From assembly GCF_057098645.1 (NCBI RefSeq), contig NZ_CM169472.1: DNA of 64,000 nt. One strand, written 5' to 3'. Position 1 is the stretch's first letter. Each line of letters opens with the position of its first letter. The translations under genes and the position numbers were made by a program. The notes beneath the pieces were generated by a model. The model saw nothing but the letters and a program-made list of their open reading frames with translations, was not told the origin of the DNA and made no database searches. Below are positions 35,881-38,800 of the stretch, piece after piece.

Positions 35881-38800
35881 TTACGCCTTCTCGATGTTGA
35901 CTAAGAACGCTTTATATTCCGGCGTTTGCGAGTTTGCATCACCGACATTCGGCGTCAGAGTGTTAGCGATATAACCTTTACGCGCGACACCCTCAAAGCC
36001 CCAGTGGATTGGAATACCCACCGTTTCAACCTGCTGACCATTTACATTCAGCGGTTTCAGACGACGCGTTACCACAGCCACCGCGCGGATAAAGCCACGC
36101 TTGCTTGAGACAGTGACACGATCGCCATTATTAATGCCTTTCGCCGCCGCCAGCGTTTCGCTGATTTCCACAAACTGTTCCGGCTGAGCAATTGCGTTGA
36201 GCAATGCGTGCTTGGTCCAGGTGTGGAAGTGCTCGGTCAGACGATAGGTCGTACCCACATACGGGAACTGCTCTTTTTTACCCATCCGCAGTGCGTCTTG
36301 TTCATACAGACGAACAACCGGGTTAGACACCACGTTCGGATGCAGCGGGTTAGTGCCCAGTGGCGTTTCAATCGGCTCGTAGTGTTCCGGGAACGGACCT
36401 TCCGCCATTTTGTTGATGGCAAACAGGCGTCCCATCCCTTCCGGCTGCATGATAAACGGCCCGGTTGGCGTACCCGGTGCGGCATTGCCGAAGTCAGGAA
36501 TATCGTTACCCGTCCACTTGCTGCCGTTCCACTGGATCAGCATCCGTTTCGGATCCCACGGTTTACCGTTGATATCCGCCGAAGCACGGTTGTACAGCAC
36601 GCGACGGTTGAGCGGCCACGCCCAAGCCCATCCCAGCGTATTCCCCAGACCGGACGGGTCGGAGTTATCGAGGTTAGCCATCTGGTTGCCCTGCTCTGTC
36701 CAGCTACCGGTGTAGATCCAGCAAGAAGATGCGGTTGTACCGTCATCACGCAGATGCGCAAAGCTACTCAGCAACTGACCTTTCTTCGCAATCAGCACGC
36801 CATTAGCATCATAGAGATCTTCCAGCGCATAGCCGTTGTTCTCTTTAGCTACTTCGTCAGATTGCGGTTCGTGCGGCTGCTTGTAGTTCCAGCTCATCTT
36901 CATCAGCGGTTCTACGCCTTTACCACCTTCGGCCTGGTACAGCTCGCGCAGGTGATGGTAGATACCCGCCAGAATTTCACCGTCGTTACGCGCTTCGCCC
37001 GGCGCATCCTGACCTTTCCAGTGCCACTGCAGCCAGCGACCGGAGTTAGCAATAGAACCATCTTCTTCAGCAAAGCAGGTCGAAGGCAGACGGAATACTT
37101 CAGTCTGAATAGACGCCGGATCGACATCGTTCGACTCGCCGTGGTTCTGCCAGAAGGTTGAGGTTTCAGTCACCAGCGGATCGATAACCACCATGTACTT
37201 CAGCTTGCTCAGGCAGCTCACCACTTTGTTTTTGTCCGGGAAGGACGCAACCGGGTTAAAGCCCTGGCAGAAATAACCGGTGACTTTGCCTTCATCCATC
37301 ATGTTGAAATACTTGATGACGTCGTAGGTCTGGTCCCACTTCGGCAGCCAGTCATAGCCCCAGTTGTTCTCTTTCTGCGCGGCATCGCCATAGAAAGATT
37401 TCATCAGGCTAACGAAGAACTTCGGATAGTTGCTCCAGTAGTTCACCTGACCAGCCAGCGTCGCTTTCGGCGTGTTCGCTTCCAGATACGACTGCAAATC
37501 AACCTGTTTTTCTGACGGCAGCGTCAGATAACCTGGCAGGCTGGTAGAGAGCAGACCTAAGTCAGTCAGACCCTGAATGTTGGAGTGACCACGCAATGCA
37601 TTCACGCCGCCACCGGCCATACCCATGTTACCGAGCAGCAACTGGATCATCGCCATAATACGGATGTTCTGCGCACCCACGGTGTGCTGCGTCCAGCCCA
37701 GCGCGTACAGGAAGGTGGTTGTGCGATCCGGTGCGCTGGTGGAGGCCAGCACTTCACACACTTTCAGGAAGTCGGCTTTTGGCGTACCACAGATGTTTTC
37801 AACAACGTCCGGCGTGTAGCGGGAAACGTGCGCTTTCAGCAGGTTCCACACACAGCGCGGATGAGTCAGTGTTTCATCGCGTTTCGCATAGCCGTTTTCA
37901 TCGAACTGATAGTTCCAGGACGATTTATCGTATTGCCGTTTTTCAGCGTCGTAGCCGCTGAACAGACCGTCTTCGAAAGCAAAATCATCACGCACCAGCA
38001 GGCTGGCGTTGGTGTAATGCTTAACGTATTCGGCGTTGATTTTGTCGTTTTCGATCAGGTAGCGCAAAACGCCAGACAGGAACGTAATGTCCGTACCGGA
38101 ACGAATAGGTGCGTAAATATCCGCCACAGAAGCGGTACGCGTAAAACGGGGATCGACAACGATCAAGGTTGCATCGTTGTTGTTTTTCGCTTCCATCGCC
38201 CAGCGGAAACCGACGGGATGCGCTTCAGCAGCGTTACCGCCCATTACCATTACGACGTTAGCGTTTTTGATATCCACCCAGTGGTTGGTCATCGCACCGC
38301 GACCAAATGTTGGAGCAAGACTTGCTACCGTTGGTCCGTGTCAGACGCGCGCCTGGTTGTCTACCGCCAGCATCCCGAGGGAGCGGGCAAATTTCTGGGT
38401 CAGCATCCCGGTTTCGTTGCTGGCACCGGAAGCACACAGCATACCGGTAGAAAGCCAACGGTTTACCGTTACGCCCTGCTCGTTCTTTTCAATAAAGTTA
38501 GCGTCACGGTCAGCTTTCATCAGCTTCGCAATACGGGAGAATGCTTCTTCCCAGCTAATGCGCTGCCATTTGTCAGAACCTAGCGCACGATATTCCGGGT
38601 AGCGCAGACGGTTTTCGCTGTTGACGTAATCCAGCAAACCGGCCCCTTTCGGGCACAGCGCACCACGGCTTACCGGATGATCCGGGTCACCTTCAATGTG
38701 ATAAATCGCTTCTCTGGCGTTTTTCGCGCCATCACCCAGGCTATACATCAATAGCCCGCAACCTACGGAACAGTATGTGCAGGTGTTACGGATCTCTTTA

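What the first reader, a model, noticed from the sequence alone, without database searches (positions are those of the whole stretch)
38290..38343. In-frame UGA selenocysteine codon and SECIS-like hairpin in fdnG
The fdnG frame is open for 1015 codons only if the single TGA at 38341-38343 (minus strand) is decoded. The mRNA immediately downstream (CAC GGA CCA ACG GUA GCAAGUCUUGC...) contains a palindromic hairpin in the position expected for a bacterial SECIS. The ORF track splits the gene into 195 and 803 aa pieces.
Basis: partly seen in the sequence, partly recalled or inferred. Interest (0 to 1): 0.3.

Follow-up and report, generated by a model that had tools for sequence, protein, structure and literature searches.

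The report
Known selenocysteine signal in E. coli fdnG
The in-frame UGA and the hairpin after it are the textbook selenocysteine codon (Sec196) and its insertion signal in the E. coli formate dehydrogenase-N gene fdnG: real, correctly read by the first stage, and already fully described.

Summary
Observation and interpretation both hold. The window is E. coli chromosome, 99.95% identical to O145 RM9872 from base 1135 onward. The minus-strand frame 38928..35881 has one internal stop, TGA at 38343..38341. Read through, it gives a 1015-aa protein that matches the FDH-N alpha family (1612 bits) and PDB 1KQF end to end, with a non-standard residue (X) at 196, where mass spectrometry has identified Sec. 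fdnH and fdnI follow. Rfam SECIS_3 hits 38346..38288 at 84.3 bits (threshold 63) and is the only Rfam hit above threshold in 64 kb. The element meets every criterion of the published bacterial SECIS model. Hairpin stability alone is not beyond chance (z = -0.65). The stronger evidence is comparative:
- TGA is present in 80 of 80 Enterobacterales species, and the next 45 nt are invariant (codon entropy 0.013 vs 0.90 bits elsewhere).
- The longest identical run between the paralogues fdnG and fdoG is 71 nt and starts 3 nt before the UGA.
- Wobble-wobble covariation supports the apical helix in 100 distinct metagenomic sequences.
- Homologues with Cys (TGT/TGC) fall below the Rfam threshold.
Novelty: already known (Berg et al. 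1991). Side notes: two private missense changes in this strain's FdnG (P116L, R753L) and an ISKpn26 copy at the window start.

The parts
35881..38928 (-). fdnG coding sequence: formate dehydrogenase-N alpha subunit, 1015 aa with Sec at 196, stop codon included
   Evidence: Translation has a single internal TGA. TIGR01553 scores 1612.5 bits against a cutoff of 814. PDB 1KQF chain A matches 1-1015. RefSeq annotates fdnG at the matching position.
38341..38343 (-). UGA codon 196, decoded as selenocysteine (the Mo ligand); the next base is C (UGAC)
   Evidence: Aligns with X196 of 1KQF. TGA is present in 80 of 80 species loci. The 71-nt block containing it matches at >=99% in 5432 of 5433 matching E. 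coli records. Mass spectrometry found Sec and never Cys at position 196 of FdnG and FdoG (PMC3636253).
38288..38346 (-). SECIS element (Rfam RF01989 SECIS_3), 59 nt, from GUC-UGA to ...GAUGAC
   Evidence: 84.3 bits against a gathering score of 63, E = 2e-19, model positions 1-59. It is the only hit above gathering score in the whole window.
38312..38329 (-). Apical SelB-binding hairpin GGUAGCAAGUCUUGCUCC. It has GG/CC pairs, a bulged U (38327), an AGCAA/UUGCU stem and a GUC loop (38321..38319). It starts 11 nt after the UGA; the loop starts 19 nt after it.
   Evidence: MFE and centroid folds. Covariation at pairs 21-33 and 24-30 in 100 distinct sequences. Loop U27 is invariant although it is a wobble position left free by the search pattern.
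38298..38340 (-). Full stem-loop, lower stem included (43 nt after the UGA); the lower-stem register is ambiguous
   Evidence: MFE is -12.7 kcal/mol. The Rfam register gives A-G and A-C mispairs in E. coli (-5.6 kcal/mol). Both registers are about 73% paired across the family.
38276..38346 (-). 71-nt block identical between this fdnG and K-12 fdoG; synonymous sites frozen
   Evidence: It is the longest identical run between the paralogues (next longest 36 nt), against 74.6% overall nucleotide identity. Codons 196-208 are invariant in 80 species.
34984..35868 (-). fdnH, beta (Fe-S) subunit
   Evidence: TIGR01582 scores 481 bits; RefSeq annotation.
34338..34991 (-). fdnI, gamma (cytochrome b556) subunit
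   Evidence: NF007558, the FDH-N gamma equivalog, scores 486.9 bits, against 268.4 for the FDH-O gamma model; RefSeq annotation.

Best explanation
This is the selenocysteine recoding site of E. coli fdnG. The mechanism below is inferred from established E. coli Sec biology and was not tested here. During translation of the fdnGHI mRNA, the hairpin directly 3' of UGA196 binds the specialised elongation factor SelB. SelB recognises the apical stem, with its bulged U and G-U loop, and carries GTP and Sec-tRNA(Sec) (selC, anticodon UCA). The tethered complex delivers Sec-tRNA to the UGA in the ribosomal A site in competition with RF2. Selenocysteine is inserted instead of terminating at 195 aa, the ribosome melts the hairpin, and translation continues to residue 1015. 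Sec196 becomes the selenium ligand of the Mo-bis-MGD cofactor in the periplasmic catalytic subunit of formate dehydrogenase-N. Shown here: the identity of the gene, the codon and the RNA element, their conservation, and covariation in the apical helix. Taken from the literature: SelB binding, dependence of decoding on the hairpin, and Sec at position 196.
For: One internal TGA in a 1015-aa frame. FDH-N alpha, beta and gamma equivalogs all score above their cutoffs. PDB 1KQF matches 1-1015 with X at 196, and D. vulgaris FdhA chains from entries titled 'selenocysteine-containing' have X aligned at the same column. Rfam SECIS_3 scores 84.3 bits against 63. The element is identical to the K-12 fdnG and fdoG elements. 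Every criterion of the published bSECIS model (PMC13188914) is met: 3-nt loop starting G-U, 7-bp upper stem, 19 nt from UGA to loop, MFE -12.7 kcal/mol. TGA is present in 80 of 80 Enterobacterales loci, with the following 45 nt invariant. Codon entropy there is 0.013 bits against 0.90 outside; none of 100,000 permutations was as low. The peptide patterns that retrieved those loci did not overlap codons 196-211. A 71-nt identical run with paralogue fdoG starts 3 nt before the UGA. In 100 distinct metagenomic Sec-type sequences the wobble-wobble pairs covary: 21-33 is GC 72, CG 12, AU 8, GU 3, UA 1; 24-30 is CG 73, AU 19, UA 2, GC 1. Overall 79% of cells pair, against 30-47% when partners are slid, and 0 of 500 shuffles reach the observed score. 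Cys-type homologues (TGT/TGC) score only 45.0, 24.7 and 48.5 bits. selAB is present in 5425 and selC in 5424 of 5426 E. coli genomes. Literature: mass spectrometry shows Sec and never Cys at 196 of FdnG and FdoG (PMC3636253); Berg et al. 1991 (J Biol Chem 266:22380 and 22386) are listed in the references of PMC13188914.
Against: Nothing contradicts it. Limits: the hairpin is no more stable than shuffled sequence (z = -0.65). Within Enterobacterales the element never varies, so those 80 loci give no covariation evidence. The lower-stem register is not resolved. The trans-acting sel genes lie outside the window, so their presence in this strain is inferred from other E. coli genomes. This strain's FdnG carries two private substitutions at conserved residues (P116L, R753L), so enzyme activity, though not recoding, could be affected.
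Confidence: 0.98

Rival explanations
1. The TGA is a genuine nonsense mutation and fdnG is a pseudogene in this strain. The hairpin is incidental.
For: Mechanical ORF callers split the gene. Public protein databases hold many 195-aa fragments ending at QARV.
Against: The TGA is in 80 of 80 species, and the 71-nt block containing it matches at >=99% in essentially all E. coli genomes. The 819 codons downstream stay open and match 1KQF over the full length. Sec is seen at 196 by mass spectrometry.
Confidence: 0.005
2. The hairpin and its sequence conservation are a by-product of protein-coding constraint on the HGPTVASLAPTFGRGAMTN motif, not a functional RNA element.
For: The peptide is highly conserved. 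Cys-type homologues keep a residual 45-48 bit SECIS_3 similarity and also fold into hairpins. Stability is not above shuffles.
Against: Protein constraint cannot freeze synonymous sites: 15 degenerate codons have 0.013 bits of entropy against 0.90 elsewhere. The covarying pairs 21-33 and 24-30 are both wobble positions. Wobble U27 in the loop is invariant in 100 distinct sequences. Cys-type genes use different synonymous codons and lose the GGU/GUC apical motif.
Confidence: 0.01
3. The 71-nt identity between fdnG and fdoG comes from recent gene conversion between the paralogues, not from selection on an RNA element.
For: The identical block is sharply bounded in a background of 74.6% identity.
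Against: The same 45-nt core is invariant across 80 species from Escherichia to Hafnia and Providencia. That would require conversion in every lineage to the same sequence. Conversion may contribute, but it does not replace selection.
Confidence: 0.03

Closest known systems
E. coli K-12 fdnG Sec196 UGA and its mRNA stem-loop (Berg, Li, Heider & Stewart 1991; Berg, Baron & Stewart 1991, J Biol Chem 266:22380 and 22386; Rfam RF01989 SECIS_3)
   Same: It is the same locus. The 71-nt block is 100% identical to K-12 MG1655 fdnG, and the operon and flanking genes are the same.
   Different: Nothing differs in the recoding element. This strain's protein differs from PDB 1KQF (K-12) at a few residues, including two private ones, P116L and R753L.
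E. coli fdoG (formate dehydrogenase-O) SECIS
   Same: All 59 nt of the Rfam match are identical and score the same 84.3 bits. Sec is also at residue 196.
   Different: It is a paralogous gene at another locus. Overall identity is 76.7% (aa) and 74.6% (nt).
E. coli fdhF (formate dehydrogenase-H) SECIS, Rfam RF01988 SECIS_2
   Same: UGAC context, 11 nt between the UGA and the apical hairpin, GG/CC pairs with a bulged U, a GCA/UGC stem core and a G-U-C loop motif.
   Different: The pair after the bulge is U-A in fdhF and A-U in fdnG, a compensatory change. The loop is GGUC in fdhF, against GUC closed by A-U in fdnG. The lower stem sequence differs. The window element scores only 28.8 bits on SECIS_2, whose gathering score is 70.
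Cys-type FDH-N homologues (e.g. Citrobacter freundii P0001/L084, Rivihabitans P0008/L086)
   Same: 70-76% identical over the queried FdnG region (residues 40-312), with the same QAR[VL]-x-HGPTV motif.
   Different: They carry TGT or TGC in place of TGA. The SECIS_3 score is below threshold (45.0, 24.7 and 48.5 bits) and the apical motif is lost.

Membership tests
Bacterial SECIS (bSECIS; Rfam RF01989 SECIS_3) | Covariance-model score at or above the curated gathering threshold | tested here: met
   84.3 bits against 63, full-length match to positions 1-59, E = 2e-19.
Bacterial SECIS (bSECIS; Rfam RF01989 SECIS_3) | In-frame UGA in a selenoprotein-family gene, at the position where homologues have Sec or Cys | tested here: met
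   X196 of 1KQF and the aligned X of the D. vulgaris FdhA chains. Cys in read-through homologues. TGA in 80 of 80 species.
Bacterial SECIS (bSECIS; Rfam RF01989 SECIS_3) | Stem-loop directly 3' of the UGA, with 16-37 nt between UGA and apical loop (model in PMC13188914) | tested here: met
   19 nt from the UGA to loop G26 (criteria).
Bacterial SECIS (bSECIS; Rfam RF01989 SECIS_3) | [quoted passage not shown] | tested here: met
   The loop is GUC. The upper stem has 7 bp with one bulged U.
Bacterial SECIS (bSECIS; Rfam RF01989 SECIS_3) | MFE of -7.5 kcal/mol or lower | tested here: met
   -12.7 kcal/mol for the 43 nt after the UGA. This is not better than shuffles (z = -0.65).
Bacterial SECIS (bSECIS; Rfam RF01989 SECIS_3) | Structure supported by compensatory changes across homologues | tested here: met
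   The apical helix is 87% paired, and three pairs show changes on both sides. 0 of 500 shuffles reach the observed score, and slid controls pair at 30-47%. The lower stem is inconclusive.
Bacterial SECIS (bSECIS; Rfam RF01989 SECIS_3) | SelB binds the hairpin, and Sec insertion depends on it | not testable with these tools
   Literature only. Berg, Baron & Stewart 1991 is cited in PMC13188914 as the source for the best-characterised bSECIS elements, those of the three E. coli formate dehydrogenase genes. Its title states that an mRNA stem-loop is essential for decoding UGA as selenocysteine.
Bacterial SECIS (bSECIS; Rfam RF01989 SECIS_3) | selA, selB, selC and selD present in the same genome | not testable with these tools
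   They lie outside the 64-kb window; no tRNA-Sec was found in it. As a proxy, selAB is in 5425 and selC in 5424 of 5426 complete E. coli genomes. selD was not checked.
Formate dehydrogenase-N alpha subunit (NCBIfam TIGR01553) | HMM score above the curated cutoff over the full length | tested here: met
   1612.5 bits against 814.2, residues 2-1014.
Formate dehydrogenase-N alpha subunit (NCBIfam TIGR01553) | Operon with beta (Fe-S) and gamma (cytochrome b) subunits of the FDH-N type | tested here: met
   TIGR01582 scores 481 bits. NF007558 (FDH-N gamma) scores 486.9 bits, above the FDH-O gamma model at 268.4.
Formate dehydrogenase-N alpha subunit (NCBIfam TIGR01553) | UHxP active-site motif and an N-terminal twin-arginine signal | tested here: met
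   V-U-H-G-P at residues 195-199 and SRRQFF at 4-9 in the translation. The motif is listed in Table 1 of PMC13188914.

The most novel reading that the evidence does not exclude
The synonymous-site freeze is stronger than the SelB-binding hairpin alone explains. In 80 Enterobacterales species all 45 nt after the UGA are invariant. That includes wobble positions unpaired in every fold model (window 38311 and 38308), and near-invariance continues to codon 217. The same positions vary freely in other Sec-type fdh genes. This could mean the lower part of the element has a further sequence-specific role, for example in competition with RF2, occlusion of the UGA, or ribosome or SelB release kinetics. 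Separately, the two private changes at conserved residues (P116L, R753L) might impair FDH-N in this strain.
Probability: 0.15. Interest if true: 0.3.

Novelty: already known. Interest (0 to 1): 0.05.

Why it matters
For genome annotation, naive ORF calling splits this selenoprotein gene into two pieces. The public protein collections show the consequence: hundreds of 195-aa fragments, some named 'sulfate ABC transporter substrate-binding protein'. Biologically there is nothing new, because the site has been characterised since 1991. It does serve as a clean positive control for a scan, since sequence-only reading found a real recoding signal.

Tried and rejected
1. Thermodynamic significance. 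The 62-mer folds at -17.4 kcal/mol but z is only -0.65, so I did not use stability as evidence.
2. The Rfam consensus register for the lower stem. In E. coli it gives A-G and A-C mispairs and -5.6 kcal/mol, against -12.7 for the MFE register. Across the family neither register is clearly better, so this is left unresolved.
3. Covariation within the 80 genome loci. It was not possible because the element is invariant there. A structure-blind codon pattern scan of metagenomes gave 100 distinct sequences instead.
4. Pseudogene, coding-constraint-only and gene-conversion readings were considered and rejected (see rival explanations).
5. A literature search for the minimal-SECIS spacing rule ('11 nucleotides') found no relevant open paper. 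The 11-nt spacing is therefore reported only as a direct observation shared with fdhF. Its functional meaning rests on my recollection of Liu et al. 1998.
6. A first hmmscan with 'U' in the sequence and a translation of the IS region in the wrong frame both failed. A script failed on file layout.

Full report
**Observation.** On the minus strand the sequence reads ...GCG CGC GUC UGA CAC GGA CCA ACG GUA GCA AGU CUU GCU CCA ACA UUU GGU CGC GGU GCG AUG ACC... The TGA lies at 38343..38341. Translating 38928..35881 gives 1016 codons with one internal stop, at codon 196, plus the terminal stop. Coordinates, sequence and ORF sizes are all as stated.

**What the gene is.** The window is E. coli chromosome. 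Bases 1135-63996 align to O145 strain RM9872 (NZ_CP028379.1) at 99.95%, with 26 mismatches. RefSeq annotates the region as adhP, yddM, fdnI, fdnH, fdnG, yddG.
- The read-through protein scores 1612.5 bits on NCBIfam TIGR01553, formate dehydrogenase-N alpha (cutoff 814).
- The two downstream ORFs are the beta subunit (TIGR01582, 481 bits) and the FDH-N-type gamma subunit (NF007558, 486.9 bits).
- The protein matches PDB 1KQF chain A over residues 1-1015, with the deposited non-standard residue (X) aligned to codon 196. D. vulgaris FdhA chains, from entries titled 'selenocysteine-containing', have X at the same column.
- Mass spectrometry in the literature found Sec, and never Cys, at position 196 of both FdnG and FdoG (PMC3636253).

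**The RNA element.** Rfam SECIS_3 (RF01989) matches 38346..38288 on the minus strand, full length, at 84.3 bits (gathering score 63, E = 2e-19). It is the only Rfam family above threshold in the 64-kb window.
- K-12 fdoG carries the identical 59 nt and gets the identical score. K-12 fdhF is the related SECIS_2 family (87.1 bits).
- The MFE and centroid folds put an apical hairpin, GGUAGCAAGUCUUGCUCC, at 38329..38312. It consists of GG/CC pairs, a bulged U, a 5-bp AGCAA/UUGCU stem and a GUC loop. It starts 11 nt after the UGA, the same spacing as in fdhF.
- Every criterion of the published bacterial SECIS model (PMC13188914) is met: a 3-nt loop beginning G-U, a 7-bp upper stem, 19 nt between UGA and loop, and an MFE of -12.7 kcal/mol for the 43 nt after the UGA.

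**Is it more than chance?** Stability is not. The 62-mer has z = -0.65 against dinucleotide shuffles, and Cys-type homologues fold equally well. Four other lines of evidence do exceed chance.

1. **Synonymous freeze between paralogues.** This fdnG and K-12 fdoG are 74.6% identical in DNA, and 57% of codons for identical residues are the same codon. Their longest identical run is 71 nt, from 38346 to 38276, starting 3 nt before the UGA. The next longest run is 36 nt.

2. **Synonymous freeze across species.** I fetched 80 loci from 80 Enterobacterales species using peptide patterns that do not overlap codons 196-211.
   - All 80 have TGA at the aligned codon, and the following 45 nt never vary.
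   - Mean codon entropy is 0.013 bits for codons 197-211 and 0.90 bits elsewhere. None of 100,000 permutations was as low.
   - Within E. coli the 71-nt block matches at >=99% in 5432 of 5433 matching records.

3. **Covariation.** A structure-blind codon pattern (U-H-x-P-x-V-x-x-L-A-x-x-F-G-R-G-A-M-T, wobble positions free) retrieved 100 distinct Sec-type sequences from metagenomes.
   - On the Rfam structure 79% of cells pair, against 30-47% when the partners are slid.
   - The covariation score is 0.204 against at most 0.102 for slid controls, and 0 of 500 shuffles reach it.
   - The two strongest covarying pairs are both wobble-to-wobble. Pair 21-33 is GC 72, CG 12, AU 8, GU 3, UA 1. Pair 24-30 is CG 73, AU 19, UA 2, GC 1.
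   - Loop U27, a free wobble position, is invariant.
   - The lower stem is weaker and its register is ambiguous. The Rfam register gives A-G and A-C mispairs in E. coli, and the MFE register is shifted by one.

4. **Sec/Cys contrast.** A protein search returned many 195-aa fragments ending at ...QARV, which are gene calls stopped at the UGA. It also returned read-through homologues, 70-76% identical over the queried FdnG region (residues 40-312), with Cys at the aligned column. Their DNA has TGT or TGC. They use different synonymous codons downstream and score only 45.0, 24.7 and 48.5 bits on SECIS_3, below threshold.

**Mechanism.** This part rests on established E. coli biology and was not tested here. 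SelB with GTP and Sec-tRNA(Sec) binds the apical hairpin and decodes UGA196 in competition with RF2. Sec196 then ligates the molybdenum of the bis-MGD cofactor.
- The trans factors lie outside the window. selAB is present in 5425 and selC in 5424 of 5426 complete E. coli genomes. selD was not checked.
- The experimental demonstrations for this gene are Berg, Li, Heider & Stewart 1991 and Berg, Baron & Stewart 1991. Both are in the reference list of PMC13188914.

**Verdict.** Observation confirmed and interpretation supported. The site is already known and of low interest.

**Points beyond the textbook.**
- The freeze within Enterobacterales includes wobble positions that are unpaired in every fold model, which is more than the minimal SelB-binding hairpin seems to require.
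- This strain's FdnG carries two substitutions, P116L (38582) and R753L (36671). Neither is seen in about 5400 complete E. coli genomes. The residues are conserved in 79 of 80 and 78 of 78 species respectively.
- Window differences from RM9872 are mostly G/C in the reference to A/T in the window (18 of 26 mismatches). That would fit recent private mutations, but I could not rule out sequencing error.

Noticed in passing
window 38582 and 36671 (minus-strand codons 116 and 753 of fdnG): Two missense changes relative to the closest genome and to K-12/1KQF: P116L (CCA to CTA) and R753L (CGC to CTC). No exact match to either 61-nt context exists in about 5400 complete E. coli genomes; every best hit has one mismatch. 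P116 is conserved in 79 of 80 Enterobacterales species and R753 in 78 of 78. These could be private mutations, sequencing errors, or a functionally altered FDH-N.
   Followed up: partly
window 1-1134: A partial IS5-like ISKpn26 element, 100% identical to copies elsewhere in E. coli and cut by the window start. It replaces the sequence found at this site in O145 RM9872. The junction near 1135 falls inside yddA (ABC transporter) of the reference, so yddA appears to be interrupted in this strain.
   Followed up: partly
window 38298-38311 (SECIS positions 36-49), compared across L004-L083: Wobble positions that are unpaired in all fold models (38311, 38308) are invariant in 80 of 80 Enterobacterales species. 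They vary freely in metagenomic Sec-type fdh genes. The conservation is stronger than the apical SelB hairpin explains.
   Followed up: partly
window 34147-34264 (between yddM and fdnI): Sub-threshold matches to naRNA4 (38.2 bits against a gathering score of 59.5) and ES036. These are REP/BIME-type palindromic repeats in the intergenic region downstream of fdnI.
   Followed up: no
protein database hits P0036, P0065, P0066, P0077: 195-aa N-terminal FdnG/FdoG fragments, truncated at the Sec UGA, are widespread in public protein sets. Some carry the wrong name 'sulfate ABC transporter substrate-binding protein'.
   Followed up: no
L084 3586-3644 (Citrobacter freundii) and L086 3105-3163: Cys-type (TGT) FDH-N homologues keep a sub-threshold relic of the SECIS_3 pattern (45.0 and 48.5 bits). 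This would fit Sec-to-Cys conversion with decay of the RNA element; it was not analysed phylogenetically.
   Followed up: partly
L109 6615-6670 and 10068-10123: One metagenome contig carries two Sec-type fdh genes with UGA plus SECIS-like sequence about 3.4 kb apart on the same strand.
   Followed up: no
window 40316 (start of the OmpC-family porin gene, 40301-41398): A 3-bp deletion relative to RM9872, with several SNPs nearby at 40225 and 40264, at the 5' end of the porin gene downstream of yddG.
   Followed up: no
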